Virus record (IMG/VR): IMGVR_UViG_3300032053_000041 | Location: 12,229 to 76,228 of that record | Source: a virus | DNA length: 64,000 bases | Reading direction: 5' to 3' (one strand) | Translations under genes and position numbers: made by a program | The notes under the pieces: generated by a model | The model's database searches: none | Told to the model about the DNA's origin: nothing | The model's input: only the letters and a program-made list of their open reading frames with translations | In this document: in pieces, positions 3,118-57,002 of the stretch | How positions within the stretch are numbered: the stretch's first letter is position 1 | Layout of the letters: each line of letters opens with the position of its first letter

Positions 3118-3551
3118 TGGCGCAGCCTACGGTGTGGCAGGACAATCACGGGTATGCCCAGCCCGCGCCGCGCCTCCAATGGGCGACGCACGCCTGTGCG
3201 TTCGACGTCGGTAAAGAACGCGCCTCATGGCTTCTTCAGCCGTACCAACAATTCCGTCCGAAGTATTTCCTGATCTCGACGCCGGGCTTCGTCGTCAACT
3301 CGCTCGATATGAACCGCGCTTACCGGCTGCTCAACGAGGTCGATGGAGACCTATATCTCGTGAGCGAATGGGATCGGCTGGAGCGCGAGTCGCAGCTGGA
3401 GCGGGTGCGTCTGCCGGGGTTCACGCTGAAACCCAGCGATCAGCTGAACCTGCAGGTGACGCTGCGGAACGCCGCGAATCTGGCACCAGGCAGGACAGTG
3501 CGGTTCAGCGCGATGATCGTCGGCGAAGAACTCGTGCAGGGGCCGTACTGA
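3117..3551 (+). CDS. beta-rich protein, possibly single jelly-roll-like
   Basis: start at ATG 3117; alternating hydrophobic strands (FRPKYFLI, FVVNSL, LNLQVTL, VRFSAMIVG). Confidence 0.4.
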   Translation: MAQPTVWQDNHGYAQPAPRLQWATHACAFDVGKERASWLLQPYQQFRPKYFLISTPGFVVNSLDMNRAYRLLNEVDGDLYLVSEWDRLERESQLERVRLPGFTLKPSDQLNLQVTLRNAANLAPGRTVRFSAMIVGEELVQGPY

Positions 3552-3721
3552 TGGCGCGGCTTATCGGTGTGCGCGCACGGGACTGGCGGGGGATCTGGCG
3601 CTGGCATCCGGCACCGCAGCCACTGGGACACATACCGTACGAATTGAAGCAGTGCCTCAACGCCATCGGGCTCGTGGCGCTGATGGCGGTCATTACGGAG
3701 GCTCTCGAAGGAGACAGATGA
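3551..3721 (+). CDS. small hypothetical protein
   Basis: coupled on both sides (TGATG / ATGA). Confidence 0.45.
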   Translation: MARLIGVRARDWRGIWRWHPAPQPLGHIPYELKQCLNAIGLVALMAVITEALEGDR

Positions 3722-4413
3722 ACAAGGACAAGCACCAGGCAGCGATCGACGCTCTCTCGGAACTCATGCGGAGTGAACTCGACGGCGACATGCGCGGGAG
3801 GTTCGCGTGCGTGAACCGGCTAGCTGTGCTCGCGCAGAAGCTCCAGGTCGAGATGAACCCGCGCCCCGAGGACATGGACGAGCGCGAGCAGGATGCGTAC
3901 GGCATAAACGTCATGGACCACGGCATCGTCAGGGGCGGCGGAGCTATGGGCGCAGCCATGTACGGTGGCGACCAGGCGCAGATGGCCCGCGAGATGCTCG
4001 CGATGATCGGCCCCGCGATGGGCGGCCTCCATAGCAACAACGAAGCGAAGAAGCGGGAGTCGATGGCTCGGGAACTGAACGAGCTACTCACGGCCAGGCG
4101 CATGCTGCAGATCGATCAGCAGCCAGACGCCGACGCTGTGGCAAAACTCACGAAACGGATCAACGCGCTCACGGATCTGGTGAGCCAGGAAGAAGAACAG
4201 GAGAATCCCCATGCACAAGCCCCAGAACTTCACGTGGTACCTGCCGTCGATGTACGGCGACATCAAGCTGGAGAAGATCACGGACAAGTCGACGCGCCTC
4301 ACGCTCGTCGGGCTCTCCCCGACGGAGAAGGAGGCCGTGAAGGCGCTCTTCGCGCGGGCGGTGAAGCCGGGGGCCTTCAAGAAGGTGTGGACATCGGAGA
4401 CGGCGCTGCGTGA
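3718..4413 (+). CDS. hypothetical helical protein
   Basis: RBS GGAG before ATG 3718; 3' end overlaps next ORF by ~200 bp. Confidence 0.55.
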   Translation: MNKDKHQAAIDALSELMRSELDGDMRGRFACVNRLAVLAQKLQVEMNPRPEDMDEREQDAYGINVMDHGIVRGGGAMGAAMYGGDQAQMAREMLAMIGPAMGGLHSNNEAKKRESMARELNELLTARRMLQIDQQPDADAVAKLTKRINALTDLVSQEEEQENPHAQAPELHVVPAVDVRRHQAGEDHGQVDAPHARRALPDGEGGREGALRAGGEAGGLQEGVDIGDGAA

Positions 4414-5071
4414 CGTCGATCTCGGTTCCCTGAAGGAGCAGATGCTCTCGCTCGACGCGCCGATCTCGCAGGTGCAGGACTTCCTGCAGAAGAAGCTGAA
4501 GCCGCACCGGAAGCAGGTGTCCGTGGTGCGCTTCGCAAGCGGGCGTCTCGAAGAGCTTTCCGAGGCGACGCTGCAGGTCATCGACGGCACCGCGGAGGAT
4601 GTGCCTGGGACGGTCGTGGAGGCTCAGGCGGTGGAGCCGGTCGTGGAGAAGAAGGAGAAGCCGGCACCCAGGAAGGAGGACAAGCCCGCGGTGGCGGCGA
4701 CGGTGGGGCAGCCGGCGCTCGGGTGCCCGGTACCGGAGTTCGACGAGGTCGAGATCCGGGCGACACGTGTCCTCAAAGCGTTCCTGACGCCGGAGCAGGT
4801 GGAGGACTTCGACCGGAGGCAGCAGTTCGTGGCCGTCGGCGCGGACACAGGCCACAGGTACCTGCTCACGTCGCGGCAGTCGCGGCACGCCTTCGAGCGG
4901 GCGAGCTTCCGATCGCTCTACGACATGGATGAGAGGCAGGCGCTCTGCGTACATGACTGGGAGGTCCCCGCGGCCGAGGAGCTTCTTGGGCTTTATCTGC
5001 ATGTGTCCCTGCCGGGACTGGAGGGCTTCGTTCGGTCCATGCCGGACCGAGACGGGGTGCTGCACCGGTGA
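4211..5071 (+). CDS. hypothetical protein
   Basis: 286 aa, RBS GGAG, strong coding bias. Confidence 0.7.
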   Translation: MHKPQNFTWYLPSMYGDIKLEKITDKSTRLTLVGLSPTEKEAVKALFARAVKPGAFKKVWTSETALRDVDLGSLKEQMLSLDAPISQVQDFLQKKLKPHRKQVSVVRFASGRLEELSEATLQVIDGTAEDVPGTVVEAQAVEPVVEKKEKPAPRKEDKPAVAATVGQPALGCPVPEFDEVEIRATRVLKAFLTPEQVEDFDRRQQFVAVGADTGHRYLLTSRQSRHAFERASFRSLYDMDERQALCVHDWEVPAAEELLGLYLHVSLPGLEGFVRSMPDRDGVLHR

Positions 5072-5445
5072 GCGACGAATCCGTCCCGCAGATGTTGCAC
5101 AATGCCCTCGCGCTGCTCAATCGCGAGTTTCCAGCCGCCAAGCTCGTCGAGGTCCGCTTGGAGTTCCGTAGCGGTGAGCGTCACGGCGCGACGTACGGCT
5201 GCGCACAAAACTGGACCAACGAACCGACCTGGACGCTACAGGTCAATAACGACCGCGAGTCCCATTCTGTGCTGAGTGAAGCGCTCGCCGTGCTTCGGGT
5301 AAAGCTCGCTCGCAAGGCGCAGGTGCCTGGGCTCGCCGATCGCGTCGCGACCATCCTTCGCGAGATCCCGGACGAGGGGTTCGAGAGGAATGACGTGCTC
5401 ATGGCCGCGCAGGTGATGCTGGAGAAGGAGCGCAGCGGACGATGA
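5068..5445 (+). CDS. hypothetical protein
   Basis: GTGA overlap with previous gene. Confidence 0.55.
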   Translation: MSDESVPQMLHNALALLNREFPAAKLVEVRLEFRSGERHGATYGCAQNWTNEPTWTLQVNNDRESHSVLSEALAVLRVKLARKAQVPGLADRVATILREIPDEGFERNDVLMAAQVMLEKERSGR

Positions 5446-5688
5446 ACCGAGAGTCGCTGGTCGTCGCTGGTTGTCTTCTCCTCTGCTGGTTCTTTGGCTT
5501 CGCGTGCGGAAAGGCGTAGGTGGCTGGAATGAAGCCCGACGCGGAACAGATTACGGAGCCGGTGACTATCACGCCGCCCGAGCCACCTTGGGTCGAGCCG
5601 TGCATGGCGTGCTCGCGGCCCATGCGATGCGACAAAGGACCGTCTGCGCTCTGGTGCTGGCGTTGCCGTTGTCGCTCGTGGCTAGGTG

Positions 5689-5724
5689 TCAGAGTCAGGA
5701 GCACACTCAGAGTCAGGAGCACAC
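5689..5724 (+). repeat. 18-bp perfect tandem duplication TCAGAGTCAGGAGCACAC x2
   Basis: read directly; lies 1 bp before the first RTGAAGCA site. Confidence 0.9.
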
Positions 5725-5725
5725 G

Positions 5726-6019
5726 ATGAAGCAAGGCACTCAGTCGGATAATTCAGGGGCGAGCTACCTGGATACGGAGAACGGCACGGTGCAGAACCTC
5801 GTCTACTGGCTCCGCGATCCGCTGGACGAGGAGACGCTGGCGGTGCTGTGCAGAGTAGAGCGCGGCACCCAGGGATTCAGGCGCGATCGGTTGAACGTGG
5901 CGTACCTTGTGAGCCGCGACTGCATCACGGCCGACTGCAACGCCGAGACGCTCGCGATCACGCCTACCGGTAGGGATGCTCTGGCATATTTCGGTGGAGA
6001 GAACAGGGCTCGTAGATGA
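5726..6019 (+). CDS. cassette 1 ORF, hypothetical
   Basis: starts MKQ in the site at 5726 and stops at the TGA of the site at 6016. Confidence 0.5.
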   Translation: MKQGTQSDNSGASYLDTENGTVQNLVYWLRDPLDEETLAVLCRVERGTQGFRRDRLNVAYLVSRDCITADCNAETLAITPTGRDALAYFGGENRARR

Positions 6020-6059
6020 AGCACGGTTGCACGGTAGATCCAACGGAACGGAGCATGTG

Positions 6060-6476
6060 ATGGCAGATCCCAAAGAGAACGCGCCGGTCGATTCTGAAGC
6101 GGTGGACCCGGGAACCCTGACGCTCTACCGGGCGCAGAGCGAGCAGCCGTGGACGGTGCCATATGGAAAGAACAAGTGGTGGGTGGTGAGCGAAGAGGGC
6201 CGTCTGAAGCACTGCCTGTCGCACGCTCAGAAGACGCTCGGGAAGATCGCTGCCATCGTCGAGAGCTTGGACCACGCGGACCGAGGCTGGCTCACCGACG
6301 ATGAGTGCGATCAGGTGGGCGACATGGCTGCGGACCTCGTAACGGTCGCGCTACAGGTGGGCACGACGGTTTCGCGCAGCGTCGCTCACGCCCTCGTCCG
6401 TCGCGTCGTCGCTAAGAACGGCAAGCTGTTCGATCTGACCGGAGGAACCTATGGCCGTGCGCTCATCTGCAAGTGA
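6060..6476 (+). CDS. cassette 2 cargo, possible MazG-like NTP pyrophosphatase fold
   Basis: all-helical, 'DMAADLV' resembles the MazG ExxD helix; weak. Confidence 0.35.
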   Translation: MADPKENAPVDSEAVDPGTLTLYRAQSEQPWTVPYGKNKWWVVSEEGRLKHCLSHAQKTLGKIAAIVESLDHADRGWLTDDECDQVGDMAADLVTVALQVGTTVSRSVAHALVRRVVAKNGKLFDLTGGTYGRALICK

Positions 6477-6563
6477 ACCGAAGGTGAGCGGGACACGTTC
6501 AGCGGACTCCCGCTCGGCAATGAAGCACGGATGCACGGCAGACCACGCGGAACGGAGCATGTG

Positions 6564-6935
6564 ATGGCAGATCCAAACGAGATGGGTACGGAGTCGGTGG
6601 TTTCCGGAGCCGCGGGGCCGGTCGATTCTGACGAGCCAAAGTCGCTGTGGACCGTTGTTGGGCTGTACGAACGGGGCAAGTACAACCGAGACACGTTCGT
6701 TTGCTACCTGAGCGGAATCACCGCGGAAGAAGCAAAGCGTTTTGCCGAAGAGGGCAACGCGGCACGTGGTGACAAGATAGAAGTGCTAGCGTGCGTCGCA
6801 GGGGGCGGTGTCGCTCACGTGTTTCAGCGTGCGGCCAGCCGATGCACATGCACGCCGTACAACCCGGAGCATGATTGTCCTGAGCACGGTCTTCAGGTGA
6901 GCGGGACTGAGAACGGATCGGAGGCTCGCAGATGA
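6564..6935 (+). CDS. cassette 3 cargo, hypothetical with C-terminal CxC...CxxH
   Basis: N-terminus similar to cassette 2 (MADP...PVDS); stops in site 6932. Confidence 0.5.
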   Translation: MADPNEMGTESVVSGAAGPVDSDEPKSLWTVVGLYERGKYNRDTFVCYLSGITAEEAKRFAEEGNAARGDKIEVLACVAGGGVAHVFQRAASRCTCTPYNPEHDCPEHGLQVSGTENGSEARR

Positions 6936-6987
6936 AGCATCCCCGAATCAGAAACCGTGCTCAGCGGAGCACGAGAGAGGCAATCCG

Positions 6988-7224
6988 GTGACCTCGGAAC
7001 GATCGGCGCGCGCGCTCAAGTGGCTCGACGATAGGTACGAGACTCGTTCCGCAGAGGAGCGACAAGCGATACTTCGGTTGGAGCCTGCTATCTTGGCGAT
7101 GTTGGTTGGGCATCATGCGCTAGGGGGCTTCGCCAGTGATGAAGCTCCAGCCATGGTCAACATAGTTCGTATCTGGTTGGAAACGAAGGTGAGCGCATCC
7201 GAAAAGACCCCGGTGCAACCGTGA
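6988..7224 (+). CDS. cassette 4 cargo, hypothetical
   Basis: coupled to a 19-aa leader ORF, stops in site 7221. Confidence 0.45.
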   Translation: MTSERSARALKWLDDRYETRSAEERQAILRLEPAILAMLVGHHALGGFASDEAPAMVNIVRIWLETKVSASEKTPVQP

Positions 7225-7424
7225 AGCAATCGAAGAAACTGATTGAGGTACACTCAGATCCGCGAACCTGTCTCTGCGGATGGGTCAGACCGGTGCGAGC
7301 CGGGTTCGCAAAAGACGAGATGGGAAACGAACCGATCGAGGTTCCAGAAAAACGGTTCTACTTTCTCTATGACTGCCCGCAGTGCGGCGCGCGGTGGAAC
7401 ATGCTTCTGGAACGGGTGGATTAG
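7221..7424 (+). CDS. cassette 5, small Zn-ribbon protein (copy 1)
   Basis: CxC...CPQC; near-identical copy at 8324. Confidence 0.6.
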   Translation: MKQSKKLIEVHSDPRTCLCGWVRPVRAGFAKDEMGNEPIEVPEKRFYFLYDCPQCGARWNMLLERVD

Positions 7425-7482
7425 GGAGCAACCGTGAAGCAACGTGTGTCGGAAACTACCCCAACAAGAAAGAGGCGATTCG

Positions 7483-7809
7483 TTGACCAAGAATCCGTTG
7501 TCGAAGCTCTACGGTGAGTGCCTCGTTGATCGAGCCGGCTCCCTTGAGGCTCGGGGGAAGGATCTTTTGATGAGTGAAGTTCGTGAGCGGGCGTTCGCGG
7601 AGTTCCTACGCCGCCATAACGATACGCTCGTAGCACTGGTGGCGACGCTCCCGAAGTGCGCTCGGGGCTGTCGCCGTCTGGCTACCACGACGGACGGTGA
7701 CGGGACGTACCACTGCGATCCTCATCGACCGCCGCGTGAACTTACGGTCAGCGTGGACCTGCCGTGGGCGAAGCTAGTTCGGGAAGAAAAGATTCCGGTG
7801 CAACCGTGA
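7483..7809 (+). CDS. cassette 6 cargo, Cys/His-containing hypothetical
   Basis: start uncertain (TTG 7483 or ATG 7569); stops in site 7806. Confidence 0.45.
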   Translation: MTKNPLSKLYGECLVDRAGSLEARGKDLLMSEVRERAFAEFLRRHNDTLVALVATLPKCARGCRRLATTTDGDGTYHCDPHRPPRELTVSVDLPWAKLVREEKIPVQP

Positions 7810-7928
7810 AGCATCTTGCAGACTGGATTCTTGACCAAGCCTCGCTGCTCGTGCCGTGCCTGTTCGCCGGGGCGTTCGTCGCTCTGATAGGTGGCGAGGT
7901 GTACGACCGAATCAGGGAGCAACCGTGA
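7806..7928 (+). CDS. cassette 7, 40-aa membrane peptide
   Basis: MKHLADWILDQASLLVPCLFAGAFVALIGGEVYDRIREQP, runs site-to-site. Confidence 0.45.
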   Translation: MKHLADWILDQASLLVPCLFAGAFVALIGGEVYDRIREQP

Positions 7929-7980
7929 AGCAGCAGGTACCGGCTGTCCGCAACGACCCCGACACGAAGGAGACAATCCG

Positions 7981-8148
7981 ATGAACCAGAAAACGAAGAA
8001 GTGCCGCGAAGAGCACCCGATCCTCTGCATCGACCCGGCGGGCGAGATTCCTCTTCGGTGCGGACTCCCGAAGGGCCACGGGGGGCTGCACGAGGACGAG
8101 CGAGAAACGGATGGCGCGAAGCCAGAGAAGACGGAGCCCGCGCCGTGA
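7981..8148 (+). CDS. cassette 8 cargo, small C/H-rich protein
   Basis: RBS GGAG, CGLPKGHGGLH motif, stops in site 8145. Confidence 0.45.
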   Translation: MNQKTKKCREEHPILCIDPAGEIPLRCGLPKGHGGLHEDERETDGAKPEKTEPAP

Positions 8149-8327
8149 AGCATCCTCGCCCCACCATCTCGGAACCCGCAGTTCTGAACTACGTGGTCTT
8201 TCACGCCGCCGATTGCCGCCGACTGCTCGACAAGTGGTGCCCGTGCGGCTGCGGAGCCGAGCAGCGAGCGCGAGACGCTCTCTATCGAGCGGTGGACGGA
8301 TGCTCAGACACTAGGAGACAACCATGA
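8145..8327 (+). CDS. cassette 9, small Cys-rich protein
   Basis: MKH start in site 8145, HxxxC...CPCGC, stops in site 8324. Confidence 0.45.
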   Translation: MKHPRPTISEPAVLNYVVFHAADCRRLLDKWCPCGCGAEQRARDALYRAVDGCSDTRRQP

Positions 8328-8527
8328 AGCAACCGAAGATACTGATTGAGGTACACTCAGATCCGCGAACCTGTCTCTGCGGATGGGTCCGACCGGTGCG
8401 AGCCGGGTTCGCAAAAGACGAGATGGGAAACGAACCGATCGAGGTTCCAGAGACACGGTTCTATTTTCTCTATGACTGCCCGCAGTGCGGCGCTCGGTGG
8501 AACATGCTTCTGGAACGGGTGGATTAG
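8324..8527 (+). CDS. cassette 10, small Zn-ribbon protein (copy 2)
   Basis: paralog of 7221..7424 with 3 aa differences. Confidence 0.6.
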   Translation: MKQPKILIEVHSDPRTCLCGWVRPVRAGFAKDEMGNEPIEVPETRFYFLYDCPQCGARWNMLLERVD

Positions 8528-8536
8528 GCGGCACCC

Positions 8537-8746
8537 GTGAAGCAGCATGACCAACCGAAGCCGCTCGTGCACTGGTGCGTGTTCAACGACGGGGAGCCGG
8601 TGTGCGGGGCGAAGATGCCGGAGCCGCCGACGAGAAAGCCGTTCTCGTGGCCCGACCACTACCCGCGGGTGGCGACGTCTCAGAAATATGTGACGTGCGA
8701 AGCCTGCAAGGAGCACTGCGCCGGTCCGAACAAGGCGAACCGGTGA
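8537..8746 (+). CDS. small Cys-rich protein after the last site
   Basis: MKQ start in site 8537; H..C, CG, CxxC. Confidence 0.5.
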   Translation: MKQHDQPKPLVHWCVFNDGEPVCGAKMPEPPTRKPFSWPDHYPRVATSQKYVTCEACKEHCAGPNKANR

Positions 8747-8764
8747 GCAAGAAGGAAGAGGAAC

Positions 8765-8968
8765 ATGAAGTTCAGTGAAGTGATCGCGGCGCTGGAGGAC
8801 GGGAAGAAGGTCAGGCAGTCCGGCATCGAGGGAGACTACTACCAGTTGGTCTCGCCGGGTCAGGGACTGAATCGCCAGTTGGTGTACGTGTATCAAGACG
8901 GCAGCTGGGAGAACGCGGAACTCAGATTCAGCGGTCACATGCGCAACGACTGGTCGGTGGTCGAGTGA
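8765..8968 (+). CDS. small phage protein, possibly DUF2829-like
   Basis: MKFSEVIAALEDGKKVR...NDWSVVE pattern. Confidence 0.45.
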   Translation: MKFSEVIAALEDGKKVRQSGIEGDYYQLVSPGQGLNRQLVYVYQDGSWENAELRFSGHMRNDWSVVE

Positions 8969-9243
8969 CGCACAAGGCGTGGAACGTGGTCGTCATCGAA
9001 ACGGAGCCGGAGACGGCGTGCGCGCGGTGCAAGAACAAGAAGGAGTGCCGCGACGTACTCGGTGATGGCACGAAGCTGTGCTTCAGCTGCGCAACGTCGG
9101 CTGAGAAGGAAGCGTACGGACGTCGGATGTTCGGGTCGCCTTCCACCGGCTTGCGCGAGACAGCCGACCGTCTCTTCGATGGCCTGAATGACAAGGAGAA
9201 GGAACTCGTCAAACGTAGGTTCGCCAAGAGGGAGGGGAAGTAG
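8965..9243 (+). CDS. small Zn-finger protein
   Basis: CxxC...CxxC. Confidence 0.55.
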   Translation: MTHKAWNVVVIETEPETACARCKNKKECRDVLGDGTKLCFSCATSAEKEAYGRRMFGSPSTGLRETADRLFDGLNDKEKELVKRRFAKREGK

Positions 9244-10044
9244 ATGAGCAGCACCGGTCGCGGCAGCGAGCGCGAGGAGAACGACGTCTACCTGACGCGC
9301 TACCCGCTCGCGCTCGCGATCTGCGAGAAGCTGAAGGCCGACGGCGTCATCGTCGCGCCGAGCGTGATGATGGAGCCGAGCGCGGGGGGAGGCTCCTTCG
9401 TCAGTGCGATGGCCGAGACATGGGCCCCGCGAACGCTGTACTGCAACGACCTCAACAGCGGTCTGATCTTGCCGGAGCACGAGGACCGTGCCCGGTTCTG
9501 CATCGAGCGCGCCCACCTGGGCCGTCACGAGAGCCACGGCAAGCTGATCTCGCTGGAGGGCGACTTCCTGCAGATCGAGCAGCGGAATGTGCCTGGGATC
9601 CAGGCCATCGTGGGCAATCCGCCATTCACCTTCGCGGAGCAGCATGTCCGTCATGCGATCTCGCTGCTTGCCCCTGGTGGAGCGCTCGCCTTCCTCCTTC
9701 CTGTGAACTTCCTCTCGGGCATCAAGCGTGTCGGCGGGCTCTATCGGGAGCACCCGCCCGAGTACGTGTACGTGATCGACAAGCGCCCGCAGTTCGTGGA
9801 CGGCTACCGGATCAACAAGCACGGCAAGCGCGTGAAGAAGGGGACCGACTCGAACGAGTACGGCGTCTTCGTGTGGAGGAAAGAGCGCCCCGAATTTGAA
9901 CCAGTGATCCGGTGGCTTCAGTGGTCGAAGTACTTGCAGAGGTTCAAGAACAAAGTCGAGAGGGTCGAGATCCAGGTAGGACAGAACGTGGACACGGACG
10001 ACGAGGACGTGGCAGGCTCCGCGACCGCAGGAGAGACAGAATGA
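9244..10044 (+). CDS. DNA amino-methyltransferase (N6-adenine type)
   Basis: motif I EPSAGGG, motif IV GNPPF. Confidence 0.85.
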   Translation: MSSTGRGSEREENDVYLTRYPLALAICEKLKADGVIVAPSVMMEPSAGGGSFVSAMAETWAPRTLYCNDLNSGLILPEHEDRARFCIERAHLGRHESHGKLISLEGDFLQIEQRNVPGIQAIVGNPPFTFAEQHVRHAISLLAPGGALAFLLPVNFLSGIKRVGGLYREHPPEYVYVIDKRPQFVDGYRINKHGKRVKKGTDSNEYGVFVWRKERPEFEPVIRWLQWSKYLQRFKNKVERVEIQVGQNVDTDDEDVAGSATAGETE

Positions 10045-10883
10045 ACCGACGACTTATCGCGTTGCTGCTTTCGCTCACGCTCGTTCTCGGAATACATGCC
10101 GCCGCCGCTGACCAGCGGAGTGGTCTGGAGCGCTGGCTATTCGCGACGGCGAACAAGCTGGAGCACTCATCGGCTCCAGGCGAAACGCGAGAGGACTACG
10201 AACGGCGGCTCGGTGGCATGTCCGCCGCGCTCGCTCGCGCCACGAAGCCCTACGCGAACGGGCAGGGCTGGACGACGACCGAGCTAGGACTCGCGATGCT
10301 GACGCTGTGGCACGCGGAGACGTTGTTTGATCAGCGTGTCCACGCTGGTATGCAGCACCCGAAGTGGACCCAGGACAAGGGGCGCGCCCGGTGCCTTGGT
10401 CAGATCCACGTCTCGCTCCTTGTGCCGCAGTCGGAATGGGAGAAGCTGGTCGGAACGGACGAGGGAGCGACGCAGATGTGCGCAGATGCAACGGCCCGGA
10501 TCTGGGTTGCGCAGGCCCGGCAGTGCGGCGTCTGGTACGGTCAGCGAGCCGATCGGAACAAGGTAGCGAAGGTCTTCGCGGCCTACGCGAGCGGCGGCAA
10601 CTGCCGCCCCGGAGAGCGCGACTGGGCGCGAGCAGACAAGTGGTTGGCCGGCATCGCGCAGCGACCGGATCGGAGCCCGGTGAAGGGCTATCGCCGGGCG
10701 GCCCCTGCCGAGATCCCGTCGAATGTGAAGGAGGACGCTCGAACGCTTGCGACCGAACTCGCTCCTCCCGGTGGCCACAAAGTCGGCGCGCAGTTTCCCG
10801 TGTGGGGCTCGTTTCTGTTGCTTGTCGAGAAGCACGCCGAGGGCAAACTCGGAGTTTCCGTTCTGATGAAGGAGAGCACGTAA
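10041..10883 (+). CDS. secreted lysozyme-like/SLT-like protein
   Basis: N-terminal signal peptide; HAET (catalytic Glu position), CLGQI (GLMQ-like), AAYASG (AYNAG-like). Confidence 0.5.
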   Translation: MNRRLIALLLSLTLVLGIHAAAADQRSGLERWLFATANKLEHSSAPGETREDYERRLGGMSAALARATKPYANGQGWTTTELGLAMLTLWHAETLFDQRVHAGMQHPKWTQDKGRARCLGQIHVSLLVPQSEWEKLVGTDEGATQMCADATARIWVAQARQCGVWYGQRADRNKVAKVFAAYASGGNCRPGERDWARADKWLAGIAQRPDRSPVKGYRRAAPAEIPSNVKEDARTLATELAPPGGHKVGAQFPVWGSFLLLVEKHAEGKLGVSVLMKEST

Positions 10884-45096: not shown

Positions 45097-45975
45097 GGCA
45101 CATGAAGCAGTACAAGGTGTGGGTAGAGATCGAGGAATGTGACGAGGAAGCCGACGTCTACGTGACCGTGTCGGCGTTCCCGGTATGTGTCGGCGTGTTC
45201 GGCACGCTCGACGAGGCCGATGACGCCGTCGCGGCGCTCACGGGTCAGAGCACGAAGTGAGCACATGATCGCAGCAATCATCATCGCGGAGATCCGCCGA
45301 GCCGAGCAGGAGGATCGCATCCTGGCCGAGTGCGACGCGCTTGATCTGGCGCTCGCGGAGGCGTTCGCCTTCGACGAGGCAAGCGGCGCGTTCGCCTTCG
45401 ACACGGAGGAATGTGCCGACGAGGACGCCGAGCTTCGCAAGGCCGCGCTCAGCAGGGGGCAGACGTGAGCAAGCTCTGCCCGAAGTGCCTGGGCAACAAG
45501 ATCCCAGGCGTGTTCCGGCAGGACGACTGCACATGCCCTACGGTGAAACAGGTGAACTGGTCCCACGTCAGGGCTCTCCGAGAGGAGGCCGCCGCCGCTG
45601 GCGACGGCGAACAGGTGGCCGTCTGCGACCGCGCGCTTGACGGCGACGAGGATGCTTACCTCGCGTGTGTCGAGGTGATCCGGCACGCCGCCATGAGAGC
45701 AAAGGAAGACACATGAACGCGCACGGCTTCGACTTCCTGATGGGCTGTATCTTCGGCTCCGTCATCATCCCGTGGTTCACGCGCATGTTCACGAACGACG
45801 GATGGCACCTTGCTCCGAGGAAGAAGCCGCCCATCGGCGAGGAAGTGCTCGCGTACATCCCGCGCAGTGGGCGGTACGCGAACGTCGTGTATCGCGGCCC
45901 CGCCGTGGACGGAGACATCCCCGAGAACTGTCACATGTACTGGCGCCCGATGCCGAGACCACCAATGGAGGACAC

Positions 45976-52703: not shown

Positions 52704-55700
52704 ATGCCGAGGCCGAACCGACCGGAACTGGCCGTGCTCCGGGGCAAGACCGGCCCCGAGTCGCTGACTCAGTGGACCGAGGCGTTCGCGGGCGGCGATC
52801 CCGACACGGCTGGGCGGTACGCCGCTGTGATCGCGCGCTTCACCGGAAGGCCCGAGCCTGGCGCGACCTACGAGCCGTACATGGGTGTGTACTCGCCCGC
52901 AACGCGGCGCGCGTACGCCTACGCGCTGACCGAGTTCTTCGAGTGGATCGCCTCGAAGTACGGACGGATCATCCCGCCGCCGCAGGTCACCCGCAAGGAC
53001 GCGGAGGACTATGTCCAGTGGCTCACGGCGCGGCCGTACACGCTCGAAGGCGAGCGCCTCCGCGATGGCGACCAACAGGAGCGCCTGGCGCTGTACGAGA
53101 TCGTGCGCGATCTCGGTTCGGCAGACGTGCTCAGCATCGCGGCGAAGATCCCTCCGTGGCTAGCCGCGGCACATTCCTCGCGCTCGGACACGACCAAGAT
53201 CGATCGCGTGTGGCTCACCAAGGAGCTTGGTCGGATGGTCCTACACGATCTGCTCGTGCGGTCGCCGACGATAGATGAGCTTCGTCGCGAGGACGCGCGC
53301 ATCGGGATCAGCGTCTTCACCGTGCTGCTGCCGATCAACGGACGGGTACGCGAGATGCCGCTCGACGAGGTTTTTTCGTACACGTTGCCCAAACCGCGCG
53401 CCGTGTCCCGAGGGACGGTCTCCGTGCGCCTCGCGGCGCTCACGTCTTTCTGGAATGTGCTGGCGACCGGCGAGAACATGGCCGGGCAGGGCGCGCTGCT
53501 CCAGTACAACGTCTTCGCCGATCTCGCTGGGCGCGTGCGCAAAGGCATGGCCGCCGAGAGCAAGGTGGCCGCCTCGCGACGCGGGAGACTCACGCCACAG
53601 ATGGTCGAGCGGCTTCTGCAGGCCGTGGACGGCCCGTCGCTCGCGGAGAAGCGCGACGCCGCGCTGCTCTGGTTCCTGGTCCTGACAGGCGCGCGGCTCA
53701 CCGAGGCTACTCGCGTGCGACGCGACCGACCGCCCGCCGCAGAGGCGCAGCGGTGGCCAGGCTGGTACGACGGCCGCGCGAACCCGCCGACCGTCGAACT
53801 GGTGCGCAAGGGAGGCCATCGGCAGCGGCTTCCGTATCCGCCCTACGCGCTCAAGGCGCTCAACTCCTTCCAGTCGGAGCTTTCCAAGCATGTGCCGCTC
53901 GCGGGCACACAGAGCGAGGATCCCGCCTCGCAGCACTACCTGCAGCCGACGTCGCCAGCATGGCGCTACAAGATGCTCGCCGAGGAGCCGGACGCGCCAC
54001 TGTTCCCGTCGGTGAACTTCTGGGGGGCCAACTCGACGCACAACTACCAGGAGTTCAAACCGAACGCGAACGTGCGCCCCGACTACAGGCGCGCGATGAC
54101 GCGGCACGGAGTCGACGCGATGCTGAAGCGCGTCGCGAAGAAAGCCGGTTTCAGCAACGAGGAGACAGCGCTGGTACACGGTCACGCCTTCCGTCACTTC
54201 GCCGCGACGGCGATGGCGAAGCAGGGCAAGCCGCTGCGCGAGATCCAGCACATTCTGGGACACGGCTCAGTCACCACCACCGAGCGCTATGTCGAGGCCG
54301 AAACACGTCCCGAGGCGCTCTCCGGACAGAACGAGATTCTCGACTACATCTCGACTGGGGTCGTGCGCGAGCCCCCGGCACCTGCGGAGCCAGAGCCACC
54401 GAGGCAGCCTCCGGTACGTGCGCCACGCCCGGTGGTCGAGACGTACGGCGTACCCGCGCCCCCGGCGGAACGACCGCGGGCTCCAAAGCCCAAGCGGGAG
54501 AGAGTGGCGGCGCTACCGCCGGAGGAGAAGGTGCTACCGGCACAGTCCCCGCAGGTGAACCCCGAGGCCGTCGTGCCCATCAACGACCGCCTGGTGGCGC
54601 TGGTCCCAGAAGGTCCCATGCCCCCGCCTGGCTCCGAGATTCGCGGGAACATATCGCCGCCGTCGCCATGGTGGGGCTACGCGGGCAGAGGACCGCTGAA
54701 GCCCGGTCAGTCTCAGGAGGACCGTGCCGCCTGGCAGGAGAAGATCGAGTTCACGTTTGCCGAGCGCAGAACGAAAAGAGGCAAGCAGGGCGCGACCTTG
54801 TACACGAAAGATGGCGGCGTGGAGATGGTGCAAGGGAACGGGTGGCTCGCCAAGCACTACGACCCGTGGCCCATCAACTACGGGCTCGGCTCAAGTTCGC
54901 TGTTGCCGTGGTTCGCTCGTGGCACCGCAACCGCCAACGGCGAGGTGAAGGCCGACGTCAGACGGACGAAGCTCGACCCACCGAATATCGTTGTGGTGCC
55001 GCCTATTCCCGTGCTCTCGCTGCAGCAGATGGACCCATCGGTGATGCAGACGCACTCGAAGCTGCTCTGGCAGAAGGTCGACGGGATGCGTACGCGATGG
55101 CTGACGACTTCGCCGTCGCGCGCCTTCGGGCTCGACCGCTGGTGGGGAGCCTTCCTGAAGATTCAGGTCGGCTTACTGAATGGCACACAGCAGAAGTTCC
55201 GTTGGCAGCCGTTCGGGGCTCAAGCGATTCTCGGAGAGGAGATCCATTCACATGACGAGGAGTACATCGTCAAGTGGCTGGAAACCAACGCCGAGCGCTA
55301 CACGGCCACAGTACGTGCCTTCGAGGAGATCGCGCGTCTCGAAGGCAAGTCCGAGACCGAGCGGTCCGAGTGGATCCAGTTCCGCGAAACATGGCGTGAC
55401 GCGGGCATCACCGACGTCAGCCCGGCACAGACCCTCCCGGACTGGTTCATCGTGGATGACCCGATTCACGATATCTACGAAAACGACCCGGAGGAGTGGG
55501 AGTGGTTCGCGAAGTGGCTCGGGGCCGTCACGGGGCAGAAGCTCACCCCGGAGCGCGAGGAGGCACTCAAGACCGAAGTGGCCATCACAGAGAACGATCA
55601 ATCGATCCGGATCCAGCAGGCGCGTCTGCTGTTGCAGACGTATTACGACACGGTGAGCGCGCTTCGTGGACTGAGTGGCGAGGCTCGCACCAGTGAGCGC

Positions 55701-57002
55701 GCCACGCTGAAGTTCCTGACGGATCAGCTACGCGACGAGTACGGCGTGCCCGACCCTGTGCAGATGCTCAAGGAGGGTAAGCTGAAGAAGCGTCAGCGGC
55801 GTGAGGCCAGCATCGAGCAGTTGCTCGCCATGGCCTTCCCGTCTGTGCCTGTCACGGAGGTCGATCCGAACATGCTCAAGAGCAGGATGTTCGACGCGGA
55901 CACGCTGCGCCTCGACATGACGAACAAGACCATCTCGCACACGCCGGAGTTCCGGAAGCACTTCGCTGAGTGGTACGACGGACGCGACTCCGAGTGCGTG
56001 GTGCGCCGCGCCGCCAGAGGTATGTGGGAGCACGTGAAGCGGCACGGGATCCCGATTGAGCGCGGAGGGGAGCGCTCGTCCGAGTACAGCCTGCTCTACT
56101 CCGTGATGCTCTCGTACATGGCGTGGATCTTCCCGTGCCCTGAAGAGATCGAGCGGCGCATGGCGGAGGAGGGTCTGGCTGGACAGGAAGCGAAGCTCAT
56201 CTGGCTGAACGGCGTTCGCAGCACGAGCCAGCGCATGATGATCTCTACACGTGACCAGGACGAGGACGCCTTGCGCGCGGTAGGTGCCGAAAACGGACTG
56301 GACCCCAAGAGCGCGGACGAGGTCATCGAAGCTGGCCTGGTCGTAGATTCAGTGCGCGCCGAGGTGGCTCTACCAAGCCAGGAGATCACGGATGCCGTGG
56401 CGCGAAGCGCGGTGAAGTCCGGACAGGTCGTCACGAGAGGCGGGACAGTGGTTGTTCGCCGGCCGAGCGCTCGTCAGCTGCTCGCTATGGATGAACCAAG
56501 ACAGGAGGAGCAGCCCGCAGCCGAGCCAGAGCCGGTTTTCTCCGCTCCAGTCGAGCCGACGGCACAGACCCCAGGAGTCCTGGCGTCGGGAAGGCCCACC
56601 GTGCTGCGTCGTCGCGCCGGTGAACGGCCGAAGCGGGCCCCGGAGACCGCTCGACGCTACGAGGAGAAGGAAGCGGAAGACTTGGAATTGCTTCAGCGAG
56701 GAGGTCCAGAGTGGTTCGCGACGGTGCGAGGGGATCAGCCCCAGGAGCGAGAGGAGGAAAGGGAGGGGATCGGCAGCTTGAGCGAGCAGGCCGATGAACA
56801 GTTGTACGGCGGCACGGACGGGGGCGAGCAGTCCGATGAGCAGTTCGCCGAGGGACTGGAGTTCAACCCGAGGCGTAAACCTGCTGGCGTCAGGTACATG
56901 ACGCTCGGCGCGTACATGGCCGGAGCCCAGTACGTCGCCAACGCGGAGAGCGTTCTTCCGAGCGCGATCCGCATGATGTCGGCGATGTCGCTGCCGTTCT
57001 AG
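52704..57002 (+). CDS. giant tyrosine recombinase/integrase (1432 aa)
   Basis: SAM-like 'SPATRRAY...EFFEW' and 'TVSVRLAALTSFW'; catalytic R (TGAR), K (RKGG), HAFRH, LGH, TTERY; ~900-aa C-terminal extension. Confidence 0.9.
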   Translation: MPRPNRPELAVLRGKTGPESLTQWTEAFAGGDPDTAGRYAAVIARFTGRPEPGATYEPYMGVYSPATRRAYAYALTEFFEWIASKYGRIIPPPQVTRKDAEDYVQWLTARPYTLEGERLRDGDQQERLALYEIVRDLGSADVLSIAAKIPPWLAAAHSSRSDTTKIDRVWLTKELGRMVLHDLLVRSPTIDELRREDARIGISVFTVLLPINGRVREMPLDEVFSYTLPKPRAVSRGTVSVRLAALTSFWNVLATGENMAGQGALLQYNVFADLAGRVRKGMAAESKVAASRRGRLTPQMVERLLQAVDGPSLAEKRDAALLWFLVLTGARLTEATRVRRDRPPAAEAQRWPGWYDGRANPPTVELVRKGGHRQRLPYPPYALKALNSFQSELSKHVPLAGTQSEDPASQHYLQPTSPAWRYKMLAEEPDAPLFPSVNFWGANSTHNYQEFKPNANVRPDYRRAMTRHGVDAMLKRVAKKAGFSNEETALVHGHAFRHFAATAMAKQGKPLREIQHILGHGSVTTTERYVEAETRPEALSGQNEILDYISTGVVREPPAPAEPEPPRQPPVRAPRPVVETYGVPAPPAERPRAPKPKRERVAALPPEEKVLPAQSPQVNPEAVVPINDRLVALVPEGPMPPPGSEIRGNISPPSPWWGYAGRGPLKPGQSQEDRAAWQEKIEFTFAERRTKRGKQGATLYTKDGGVEMVQGNGWLAKHYDPWPINYGLGSSSLLPWFARGTATANGEVKADVRRTKLDPPNIVVVPPIPVLSLQQMDPSVMQTHSKLLWQKVDGMRTRWLTTSPSRAFGLDRWWGAFLKIQVGLLNGTQQKFRWQPFGAQAILGEEIHSHDEEYIVKWLETNAERYTATVRAFEEIARLEGKSETERSEWIQFRETWRDAGITDVSPAQTLPDWFIVDDPIHDIYENDPEEWEWFAKWLGAVTGQKLTPEREEALKTEVAITENDQSIRIQQARLLLQTYYDTVSALRGLSGEARTSERATLKFLTDQLRDEYGVPDPVQMLKEGKLKKRQRREASIEQLLAMAFPSVPVTEVDPNMLKSRMFDADTLRLDMTNKTISHTPEFRKHFAEWYDGRDSECVVRRAARGMWEHVKRHGIPIERGGERSSEYSLLYSVMLSYMAWIFPCPEEIERRMAEEGLAGQEAKLIWLNGVRSTSQRMMISTRDQDEDALRAVGAENGLDPKSADEVIEAGLVVDSVRAEVALPSQEITDAVARSAVKSGQVVTRGGTVVVRRPSARQLLAMDEPRQEEQPAAEPEPVFSAPVEPTAQTPGVLASGRPTVLRRRAGERPKRAPETARRYEEKEAEDLELLQRGGPEWFATVRGDQPQEREEEREGIGSLSEQADEQLYGGTDGGEQSDEQFAEGLEFNPRRKPAGVRYMTLGAYMAGAQYVANAESVLPSAIRMMSAMSLPF

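What the first reader, a model, noticed from the sequence alone, without database searches (positions are those of the whole stretch)
5726..8746. Integron/shufflon-like gene-cassette array in a phage, joined by a fixed RTGAAGCA octamer
Seen: RTGAAGCA occurs 11 times in ~2.8 kb (5726, 6016, 6520, 6932, 7221, 7434, 7806, 7925, 8145, 8324, 8537), always in the same orientation and always at a gene junction. It cuts the DNA into 119-504 bp units, each carrying one small, mostly Cys-rich or membrane ORF, and the region looks less GC-rich than its flanks. I noticed only two other plus-strand copies in the rest of the window (45102, ~47006). Known: integrons and pdif arrays build such tandem cassettes by site-specific recombination, but no attC (GTTRRRY hairpin) or XerCD dif consensus is present. 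Inference: an undescribed cassette capture/shuffling system.
Basis: partly seen in the sequence, partly recalled or inferred. Interest (0 to 1): 0.92.

Follow-up and report, generated by a model that had tools for sequence, protein, structure and literature searches.

The report
Adaptor-joined gene cassettes in phages
A run of small, unrelated phage genes is stitched together by copies of one ~100-base joint with a fixed RTGAAGCA core holding the stop of one gene and the start of the next; related phages swap genes at this joint, but I found no integron-type machinery.

Summary
RTGAAGCA occurs 11 times, co-oriented, in window 5726-8544; the 76-kb phage contig has 13 plus-strand copies. The octamer is the near-invariant core of a ~100-nt intercistronic element: an SD-like box, an RTGA stop/start overlap, then a ~57-nt leader. 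The leader is often a 19-codon mini-cistron with an internal SD, and its stop overlaps the real start.

The same element forms co-oriented arrays in about 17 uncultured viral contigs, including phages that share almost no genes with this one. Three close relatives (window, L001, G006) carry three different cassette sets in the same slots. Cassette c9 is 98.4% identical in G006 but sits elsewhere with new neighbours. Sediment-metagenome contigs break at the cores. So cassette shuffling at the core is supported.

Integron, shufflon and pdif membership all fail: no hairpin, no inverted arms, no shared recombinase. Equally exact swaps occur at bare RTGA without the core.

Best reading (about 0.5): a portable translational-coupling adaptor, like a natural bicistronic design, that also serves as the exchange point. 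This resembles T4 PeSL and cluster-K SAS. Core-specific recombination (about 0.2) is not excluded.

This scan noted a similar adaptor array on another phage genome (e1-5694883).

The parts
5442..5519 (+). First variable gene, a 25-aa hydrophobic ORF. Its ATG overlaps the stop of the conserved 125-aa gene (ATGA at 5442-5445). This is the left edge of the hypervariable slot.
   Evidence: Homology with L001 ends exactly after ..CGATGA at 5445. ORF listed.
5529..5729 (+). Cassette c0 with a degenerate core, ATGAAGCC. The in-frame leader MKPDAEQITEPVT..PPEPP is followed by a Cys-rich body.
   Evidence: ORF. Leader resembles the MKQPDTATPTEPVT family. A metagenome contig diverges at 5535.
5689..5724 (+). 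Perfect 18-nt tandem duplication carrying the SD-like CAGGAGCACAC box just before junction J1.
   Evidence: the repeat finder family D7. Also present in L003.
5726..6019 (+). J1 core (ATGAAGCA, 5726-5733) plus cassette c1, a 97-aa ORF that starts at the core.
6016..6476 (+). J2 core, a 14-codon leader mini-ORF (6016-6060, MKHGCT type), then cassette c2 (ATG 6060-6476, 138 aa). The leader stop overlaps the gene start (TGATG).
   Evidence: c2 matches phrog_27761, function unknown.
6520..6935 (+). J3 core, a 14-codon leader (6520-6564), then cassette c3 (6564-6935, 123 aa). The leader is 85-87% identical to the J2 leader; the gene bodies are unrelated.
   Evidence: (D4).
6932..7224 (+). J4 core, a 19-codon leader (6932-6991) ending ..GAGAGGCAATCCG-GTGA, then cassette c4 (GTG 6988-7224, 78 aa).
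   Evidence: The same leader precedes different genes in L007 and L020.
7221..7424 (+). J5 core plus cassette c5, a 67-aa CxC..CPxC zinc-ribbon-like ORF that starts at the core.
   Evidence: It is a paralogue of c10 at 95%, with homology bounded by the cores.
7434..7809 (+). J6 core, a 27-codon leader ORF (7434-7517), then cassette c6 in another frame (open 7444-7809; true start uncertain).
7806..7928 (+). J7 core plus cassette c7, a 40-aa hydrophobic peptide.
   Evidence: A metagenome contig spans exactly 7804-7932.
7925..8148 (+). J8 core, a 19-codon leader (7925-7984), then cassette c8 (ATG 7981-8148, 55 aa).
   Evidence: This is the best profile hit in the genome. A metagenome contig spans 7926-8152.
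8145..8327 (+). J9 core plus cassette c9, a 60-aa Cys-rich ORF. This cassette is found elsewhere in relative G006 (98.4%) and in L010 (83%).
8324..8527 (+). J10 core (ATG) plus cassette c10, a 67-aa copy of c5.
   Evidence: (D1).
8537..8746 (+). J11 core plus cassette c11, a 69-aa Cys-rich ORF.
8765..8968 (+). Last variable gene, 67 aa, with a borderline Tad2-like (Thoeris anti-defence) match. Its stop overlaps the GTG of the conserved 92-aa gene (GTGA at 8965-8968), which is the right edge of the slot.
   Evidence: Pfam PF11195, E 3.1e-5, 24.9 bits against a cut-off of 25. Homology with L001 and G006 resumes at 8964/8965.
9244..10044 (+). DNA methyltransferase gene just downstream. Context only.
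   Evidence: phrog_799, E 9.5e-35.

Best explanation
RTGAAGCA is the core of a portable intercistronic adaptor of about 100 nt, used by several lineages of uncultured GC-rich sediment/soil phages to string small accessory genes into one translationally coupled operon.

How it is built. The upstream half supplies an SD-like box: GGWGCAACC, or GGAGGCnCGnAG in the ATG type. The RTGA holds the upstream gene's stop (TGA) overlapped with a start (RTG). AAGCA opens a leader of about 57 nt. That leader takes one of two forms. It can be a short cistron, typically 19 codons, that contains a second SD and whose stop overlaps the real start of the cargo gene. Or it can be fused in frame to the cargo.

How it probably works (inferred). 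Ribosomes that finish one gene restart at the core, translate the leader, and so deliver an open, standard start region to whatever gene follows. This is the logic of engineered bicistronic designs.

Consequence (shown). Because every cassette is bracketed by the same adaptor, cassettes are exchanged, duplicated and moved between positions and between phages at the core.

Mechanism of exchange (inferred). Short-homology or illegitimate recombination at the invariant core, followed by selection for intact coupling, rather than a dedicated recombinase.
For: Register with translation:
- The core's TGA ends an upstream frame open for at least 50 codons at 71% of 104 junctions, against 25-29% in controls.
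- The first base R belongs to the last sense codon of the upstream gene (..CC|G or ..AG|A).

Leader design:
- 38 of 108 junctions start a short ORF, and 17 of those are exactly 19 codons.
- These have GAGAGG/GGAG 8-13 nt before a start codon that overlaps the leader's stop.
- The leader's 3' box (GGAGgCAATCC-RTGA) repeats the box upstream of the core.

The peptide is irrelevant:
- The base after the core is free, giving Q or H.
- The smaller leader families show no third-position bias; totals over all families are 34/34/38, and the largest family is saturated.
- The same 125-aa protein exists without the leader in the window and L001, and with an in-frame leader in G006, at 89% identity.

Operon-like layout:
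- No promoter or terminator excess inside the array.
- No conserved RNA fold and no Rfam family.

The partner is probably host-encoded:
- Arrays occur in phages that share almost no genes.

Exchange happens:
- The window, L001 and G006 hold three different cassette sets in the same slots.
- Cassette c9 is 98.4% identical in G006, with homology running from core to core.
- c5 and c10 are duplicated core to core.
- Shared segments begin -9 to +1 nt from the core start and end 0 to +3 nt from the core end.
- Metagenome contigs end at the cores, and one joint fuses J2 to J7 through the shared 7 nt.

A core is not needed for exact swaps:
- Bare RTGA boundaries occur at window 5071, 5445 and 8965, and at the 3' end of the recombinase cassette.

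Bicistronic-design logic: bioRxiv 10.1101/2023.02.09.527918 and PMC5995908. Translational coupling review: PMC12548453.
Against: - No expression or ribosome data exist. No RNA runs hold this stretch.
- AAGCA is more strictly conserved than the SD box itself. That is unusual for a purely ribosomal signal and suggests a sequence-specific reader.
- Hybrid junctions join unlike left and right halves with only 7 nt of identity. A single 179-bp cassette has also moved across a conserved gene. A core-targeted recombinase or a circular intermediate explains these more easily than general recombination does.
- NTGA overlap at leader ends is weak evidence alone, because three of the four possible preceding bases give a start codon by chance.
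- About two-thirds of junctions have no separate leader cistron.
Confidence: 0.5

Rival explanations
1. A phage cassette system that works like an integron. TGAAGCA is the crossover core of a tyrosine recombinase: the Cre-like 314-aa enzyme carried as a cassette in some arrays, and/or the giant 1432-aa recombinase of G000 and G001. The enzyme excises cassettes as circles and reinserts them at other cores.
For: - The 7-8-nt core is near-invariant and more conserved than its flanks.
- All sites within an array are in direct orientation.
- Exchange points lie at the core, including hybrids with only 7 nt of identity.
- Cassette c9 has been relocated from core to core.
- Tyrosine recombinases are present in all four large genomes examined.
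- A Cre-like recombinase sits 56 nt after a core, between the ATG-type and GTG-type runs, in G002 and L172. It is also linked to arrays in G003 and L173.
- The MKHGCT-type leader (CGGWTGCACG) is the reverse complement of the GTG-type left box.
Against: - Individual junctions have no inverted arms: 2.4 of 11 complementary positions, against 2.8-2.9 in controls.
- No conserved hairpin.
- No one recombinase family is shared. G000 and G001 lack the Cre-like enzyme, and G002 and G003 lack the giant one.
- A 72%-identical Cre-like homologue sits in a contig with no array.
- The recombinase behaves as cargo, bounded like any other cassette.
- Exact swaps also occur at bare RTGA.
- Relative L001, which has no array, keeps no empty core site.
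- The core is locked in register with the stop and start codons. A DNA recombination site would not need that.
Confidence: 0.2
2. The core and its flanks are the binding or cleavage site of a sequence-specific regulator that controls all cassettes together. Candidates are a translational repressor, an RNase acting on the mRNA (in the manner of T4 RegA or RegB), or a DNA-binding repressor of the stoperator kind. Shuffling would then be a by-product of the shared sequence.
For: - AAGCA is invariant at the nucleotide level beyond what the SD shows.
- The sites have one orientation and are confined to one class of non-structural genes.
- The authors of the SAS/ESAS paper suggest protein or RNA partners for a comparable motif (PMC3203893).
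Against:
- The sites are in strict codon register.
- I could not run any direct test.
Confidence: 0.12
3. Each junction is a phage-specific or alternative-sigma promoter, with boxes at about -40, -20 and -9 and a start near the RTG. Every cassette would then be its own, possibly leaderless, transcription unit, as with PeSL early promoters.
For: - Three semi-conserved boxes (GGTGAGCG, GAAAGAC, GGTGCAACC) sit upstream of an invariant core.
- PeSL is a precedent (PMC2839356).
Against: - No sigma-70-like sites.
- The boxes read as SD plus RTGA units in codon register.
- Upstream genes run through the boxes and stop inside the core.
- Spacing between the boxes varies.
- No RNA polymerase or sigma factor is shared.
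Confidence: 0.05
4. There is no exchange system. The array is a tandemly duplicated, diverged paralogue family that kept its start region.
For: There are two paralogous pairs inside the array: c5/c10, and the leaders of c2/c3.
Against: - Cassette bodies are unrelated in sequence and length.
- The same adaptor occurs in unrelated phages.
- Close relatives differ by whole cassettes.
- The c5/c10 copies are not part of a block duplication.
Confidence: 0.03

Closest known systems
PeSL (promoter-early stem-loop) cassettes in hyperplastic regions of T4-type phages (Arbiol et al. 2010, PMC2839356; Comeau et al. 2014, PMC4122927)
   Same: Both are short conserved motifs repeated between small, mostly ORFan, non-essential genes in a hypervariable phage region. 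In both, insertions, deletions and replacements between close relatives are bounded by the motif, so the motif acts as the exchange point for modular shuffling.
   Different: A PeSL is a sigma-70 promoter plus a terminator stem-loop, and acts in transcription. This element has neither. It is a stop/start overlap with a leader cistron, in codon register. Mini-circles were shown for PeSL and could not be tested here. Exact identity between junctions here is only 8-17 nt.
Start-associated sequences (SAS/ESAS) of cluster K mycobacteriophages (Pope et al. 2011, PMC3203893)
   Same: Both are asymmetric repeats in one orientation at the translation starts of non-structural genes. Both contain an SD, sometimes overlap the upstream stop, precede genes of different families, and have no experimentally shown function.
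   Different: SAS is a 13-bp box 3-7 bp upstream of the start and is confined to one phage cluster. Here the invariant part includes the start codon and the next 5 nt, sits within a ~100-nt element with a leader cistron, is clustered in arrays, crosses unrelated phage lineages, and marks cassette breakpoints.
Integrons and attC cassette arrays (IntI, attI, attC; CALINs)
   Same: Both are tandem, co-oriented, mostly one-gene promoterless cassettes of diverse, largely unknown function. Both have a short conserved core at each boundary, and content that varies between relatives.
   Different: There is no attC-like folded site, no IntI-type integrase and no attI platform next to an integrase. The core here is in codon register, and swaps also occur without the core. 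See the membership test.
Engineered bicistronic designs (BCD) and natural translational coupling (bioRxiv 10.1101/2023.02.09.527918; PMC5995908; review PMC12548453)
   Same: A short, efficiently initiated leader cistron contains the SD of the second cistron and ends in a stop that overlaps the second start. This gives expression that is independent of the cargo sequence.
   Different: BCD is a laboratory device. A natural element of this design that is mobile and re-used many times at cassette boundaries has not, to my knowledge, been described. The function here is inferred from anatomy only.
Shufflons (Rci / sfx) and pdif modules (XerC/D)
   Same: Both have short repeated sites that delimit small DNA segments which get rearranged. 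Rci sites also have a 7-bp core and only one conserved arm (from my own knowledge).
   Different: Shufflons invert segments between inverted sites, whereas all sites here are direct. pdif sites are 11-6-11 dif-like inverted arms in alternating orientation, and none are present here.

Membership tests
Integron | attC sites: imperfect inverted repeats that fold into a hairpin at each cassette 3' end | tested here: not met
   RNAalifold on 81 junctions, and on the GTG and ATG subsets, gives no consensus pairs. Single-sequence z-scores are about 0 for 10 of the 11 window junctions.
Integron | IntI-type integrase next to the array | tested here: not met
   The array-borne recombinase scores 19.9 bits on TIGR02249 (integron integrase) against a cut-off of 265. 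Its best solved relatives are Cre. The window has no recombinase within 40 kb of the array.
Integron | attI insertion site retained at the head of the array, including in empty platforms | tested here: not met
   Relative L001 lacks the array and has no core at the slot, only ATGA and GTGA overlaps.
Integron | Co-oriented, mostly promoterless single-gene cassettes whose content varies between relatives | tested here: met
Shufflon | Sites in inverted orientation that allow segment inversion by Rci | tested here: not met
   All profile-confirmed junctions are co-oriented within every array. The nearby minus-strand octamer in G001 does not match the profile.
pdif / Xer modules | dif-like 11-6-11 sites with inverted XerC and XerD arms | tested here: not met
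   No arm complementarity around cores of 6, 7 or 8 nt: mean 2.4-3.0 of 11, equal to controls.
PeSL cassettes | Sigma-70-type early promoter within the motif | tested here: not met
   0 promoter-like sites in 3500-10500, against 0.7 expected. The scan covers only the sigma-70 consensus.
PeSL cassettes | Stem-loop terminator within the motif | tested here: not met
   (4 terminator-like sites against 5.0 expected, none at the junctions).
PeSL cassettes | Differences between close relatives are bounded by the motif | tested here: met
PeSL cassettes | Mini-circles formed by recombination between neighbouring motifs | not testable with these tools
   Only assembled contigs of the runs were available.
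SAS (cluster K start-associated sequences) | Asymmetric conserved motif with an SD at gene starts, in one orientation, in non-structural genes | tested here: met
   The sequence, length and phage group all differ, so this is an analogy, not membership.
Bicistronic design / coupled leader cistron | Short leader ORF with its own start context | tested here: met
   38 of 108 junctions have one, 17 of them exactly 19 codons. The other junctions have the leader fused in frame.
Bicistronic design / coupled leader cistron | Second SD inside the leader, and a leader stop that overlaps the cargo start | tested here: met
   GAGAGG/GGAG lies 8-13 nt before NTGA in nearly all 19-codon leaders. 31 of 38 short leaders end in NTGA and 1 in a TAG-ATG stop/start overlap.
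Bicistronic design / coupled leader cistron | Leader translation is needed for cargo expression | not testable with these tools
   No RNA or ribosome data.

The most novel reading that the evidence does not exclude
These arrays are a phage-borne cassette capture system that works like an integron but is built differently. An unstructured, asymmetric site has a TGAAGCA crossover core that doubles as the stop/start junction. It would be served in trans by simple tyrosine recombinases: the Cre-like enzyme that rides as a cassette, or the 1432-aa enzyme of G000 and G001. Cassettes would move as circles between phages.
Probability: 0.2. Interest if true: 0.9.

Novelty: new variant of a known kind. 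Interest (0 to 1): 0.66.

Why it matters
Phage accessory regions, which hold anti-defence and host-takeover genes, are the fastest-changing parts of phage genomes. How new genes get inserted and are expressed at once is largely unexplained outside T4's PeSL.

This element suggests a general answer for one group of environmental phages: a standard plug that supplies stop, ribosome site, start and a leader cistron, so that any cargo is expressed, and that is also the point where cargo is swapped.

It gives three practical things:
- A search handle, the core plus its profile, for finding hundreds of unknown small phage genes as discrete units. The neighbourhood here holds a borderline Tad2-like hit and a DNA methyltransferase.
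- A natural counterpart of bicistronic expression designs that can be tested directly.
- A clear, testable question: is an 8-nt core enough for cassette exchange, or is a recombinase involved?

Tried and rejected
- **Structured RNA or attC-like hairpin.** RNAalifold and single-sequence folds gave no structure. No Rfam match.
- **"11-7-11" inverted-arm site.** Not present within junctions. Complementarity exists only between junction types: the MKHGCT-type leader against the GTG-type left box, in 7 of 81 junctions. This remains unexplained.
- **lox-like site near the Cre-like gene.** No inverted repeat is shared by the three loci. Uninformative.
- **Serine recombinases.** None in the four genomes. 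RecT and ERF: none. YqaJ: only in G003. So no phage-encoded general recombination system is shared.
- **Cultured-phage relatives.** No comparable array in 50,697 phage records.
- **Cellular genomes.** They look like chance single hits with no arrays. Absence from prophages is therefore not shown.
- **Upstream-only short profile search.** It returned nothing and the script failed. I replaced it with flank-anchored regex counts.
- **Four-base (UGAA) or suppressor tRNA reading of the junction.** No tRNA in the window. The other array genomes have none with a UCA or UUCA anticodon.
- **Protein-level clustering of cassettes.** Mostly singletons. The large "A" cluster was held together by the shared leader peptide.
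- **Pfam/PHROG annotation of cassettes.** Nearly all ORFans.
- **Coverage gaps and "goes back" joints in the laid contigs.** Not interpretable as circles or deletions.
- **Host identity.** Not determined.
- Corrected.

Full report
**Observation.** RTGAAGCA occurs on the plus strand at the 11 stated positions between 5726 and 8537. The window holds 15 copies on both strands against 2.55 expected, and no shuffle of 100 reaches 15. The window is part of a single 76,228-bp viral contig that has 13 plus-strand copies in all. A profile built from 81 junctions matches only the 11 array sites in the whole genome, so the copies at 45102 and 47006 are chance octamers. GC in the array is 0.58-0.63 against about 0.65 elsewhere.

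**Anatomy.** I aligned 85 clustered junctions from this and other contigs. The octamer is the invariant centre of an element of about 100 nt.
- Upstream lie a GGTGAGCG box at about -40 and a GAAAGAC box.
- An SD-like box abuts the core: GGWGCAACC in GTG-type junctions, GGAGGCnCGnAG in ATG-type junctions.
- RTGA is a stop/start overlap. The TGA closes an upstream frame open for at least 50 codons at 71% of 104 junctions, against 25-29% in controls.
- The first base R is the last base of the upstream gene's final codon.
- Downstream of the core lies a ~57-nt leader. The leaders form one large nucleotide family plus two small ones.
- In 38 of 108 junctions the leader is a separate short ORF, and 17 of these are exactly 19 codons. 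It carries GAGAGG/GGAG 8-13 nt before a start codon that overlaps its own stop, and the cargo gene begins there.
- Elsewhere the same leader is fused in frame to the cargo (MKQPDTATPTEPVT..PPP type), or the cargo starts at the core.
- In the window, J2, J3, J4, J6 and J8 have leader cistrons of 14, 14, 19, 27 and 19 codons.

The constraint is on nucleotides, not on a peptide. The base after the core is free. The smaller leader families show no third-position bias, with totals of 34/34/38 over all families and the largest family saturated. When I anchor on the flanks alone, the 8-mer in between is almost always RTGAAGCA. There is no conserved fold, no Rfam family, and no promoter or terminator excess.

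**Distribution.** A scan of IMG/VR for the 17-mer GGWGCAACCGTGAAGCA returned 28 loci. About 17 contigs carry co-oriented arrays of 3-9 or more junctions. In whole records:
- G001 (140 kb) has three arrays.
- G002 (96 kb) has 14 junctions, and the array wraps around the contig ends.
- G003 (58.6 kb, with direct terminal repeats) has 7.

ATG-type junctions come before GTG-type junctions in each array. G000 and G001 share many genes. G002 and G003 share almost none with them. So the element crosses phage lineages.

I found no comparable array in cultured phage records. The array's DNA is held by 24 sediment-metagenome runs from 2019-2020, filed under 24 study codes; these may be one campaign.

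- L001 has flanks 97% and 81% identical to the window. In place of window 5446-8963 it has 545 bp with two other genes. The breaks fall exactly at ..CGATGA| and |GTGACGCACAAG.
- G006 has flanks 90-94% identical. Its contig starts at a core, and it has cores at 1, 222, 434, 613 and 1238.
- G006 carries window cassette c9 at 98.4% identity, with homology from 2 nt before one core to 9 nt after the next. Both neighbours are different.
- In G006 that cassette lies upstream of the 125-aa gene, which in the window and L001 is coupled directly to the 286-aa gene.
- In G006 the 125-aa gene itself carries an in-frame leader. The protein is 89% identical with or without it.
- Inside the window, c5 and c10 are 95% identical from core to core and have different neighbours.
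- Across all arrays, shared segments begin -9 to +1 nt from the core start and end 0 to +3 nt from the core end.
- In the laid metagenome contigs, pieces end at the cores: 5725-6023, 6519-6939, 7804-7932, 7926-8152, and one starting at 8324. One joint fuses J2 to J7 through the shared 7 nt. Loose ends show other neighbours before 6016, 6519, 7919 and 8146, and other gene bodies after the leaders.

I read the contig ends as assembly branch points caused by alternative neighbours. That is an inference.

**Is it a site-specific system?** Several tests fail.
- No hairpin.
- No inverted arms around a 6-8-nt core within junctions.
- All sites are direct.
- No serine recombinase.

Tyrosine recombinases occur in all four large genomes, but from different families. 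A 314-aa Cre-like enzyme sits 56 nt after a core in G002, G003, L172 and L173. It behaves as cargo. Nucleotide homology between these otherwise unrelated contigs starts at TGAAGCA and stops at its stop codon, which is a bare RTGA followed by three different genes. A 72%-identical homologue lies in a contig with no array. G000 and G001 have arrays without it.

Exact swaps at bare RTGA (window 5071, 5445 and 8965, and the recombinase 3' end) show that precise gene-boundary exchange in these phages does not need the core.

Some points still favour a core-targeted process:
- The core is more invariant than the SD box.
- Hybrid junctions share only 7 nt.
- Cassette c9 has been relocated.
- The MKHGCT-type leader is the reverse complement of the GTG-type left box.

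**Cargo and context.** Window cassettes have no Pfam hits and one PHROG of unknown function. Of 71 cassette proteins from other arrays, only a few match anything: HTH regulators, a D12 adenine methyltransferase, a pentapeptide-repeat protein, a double zinc ribbon and two DUFs. The last variable gene in the window (8765-8968) is a borderline Tad2-like match, and a DNA methyltransferase follows it. This looks like an accessory, possibly anti-defence, operon. That is an inference.

**Verdict.** The best-supported reading is a portable translational-coupling adaptor. It standardises the expression of acquired genes, following the logic of bicistronic designs (10.1101/2023.02.09.527918, PMC5995908, PMC12548453), and it is also the exchange point for cassette shuffling.

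The closest natural analogues are T4-type PeSL (PMC2839356, PMC4122927) and cluster-K SAS (PMC3203893). It differs from both in sequence, in the level at which it acts, and in its spread across lineages. Literature searches found no description of it. I class it as a new variant of a known kind.

Earlier notes of this scan describe a similar "leader-junction adaptor" array in another uncultured soil phage (e1-5694883). That is an unchecked AI note, not independent evidence.

**Limits.** There are no expression data and no raw reads. The host is unknown. The junction set was seeded with the exact octamer, which I only partly offset with flank-anchored counts.

Noticed in passing
window 52704-57002 (+): A 1432-aa protein whose first ~530 residues hold a tyrosine-recombinase domain (PF00589, E 4.8e-17) followed by a ~900-aa extension. 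A 50%-identical homologue lies in G001 at 121285-125124, about 1.2 kb downstream of that genome's third small junction array. It is absent from G002 and G003.
   Followed up: partly
window 8765-8968 (+): A 67-aa protein with a borderline match to the Tad2-like Thoeris anti-defence domain (PF11195, 24.9 bits against a cut-off of 25). It lies directly after the last cassette and before a DNA methyltransferase.
   Followed up: no
window 6016-6033 and 6520-6537, compared with 7797-7806 and 7211-7221: The first 10 nt of the MKHGCT-type leader (CGGWTGCACG) are the reverse complement of the GTG-type left box (GGTGCAACCG). This holds for 7 of 81 junctions. A circle excised between such an ATG-type junction and a GTG-type junction would carry a perfect 10-7-10 palindrome. 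It could be chance; I have no explanation.
   Followed up: partly
window 6482-6511: An 8-bp GC-rich stem (GAGCGGGA ... TCCCGCTC) in the 44-nt non-coding gap before J3. It overlaps the GGTGAGCGGGAC box that recurs upstream of ATG-type junctions.
   Followed up: no
window 5689-5724: A perfect 18-nt tandem duplication of an SD-containing box immediately upstream of J1. It is also present in relative L003.
   Followed up: no
L047:19516-19591 (+), which is G001 79516-79591: ARAGORN calls a tRNA with a four-base anticodon (taat) next to a tRNA-Leu(aag) in the 140-kb array-bearing phage G001.
   Followed up: no
L009 and L013 (IMG/VR contigs, overall GC 0.43-0.44): Typical GC-rich junctions and cassettes sit inside otherwise AT-rich contigs. 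This is either transfer of the module into low-GC phages or a chimeric assembly.
   Followed up: no
G002 contig ends (L176 / L174; 95794-96018 against 3-224): The Cre-like recombinase gene spans the contig ends, with an imperfect (96-97% amino-acid identity) terminal repeat of about 225 nt. This suggests a circularly permuted assembly or an internal duplication in the gene.
   Followed up: partly
L001:10405-10770 and L178:1726-2089: A DUF4259 protein and a 61-63-aa partner occupy the variable slot in both L001 and G006, but not in the window. They look like a two-gene module that travels together.
   Followed up: no
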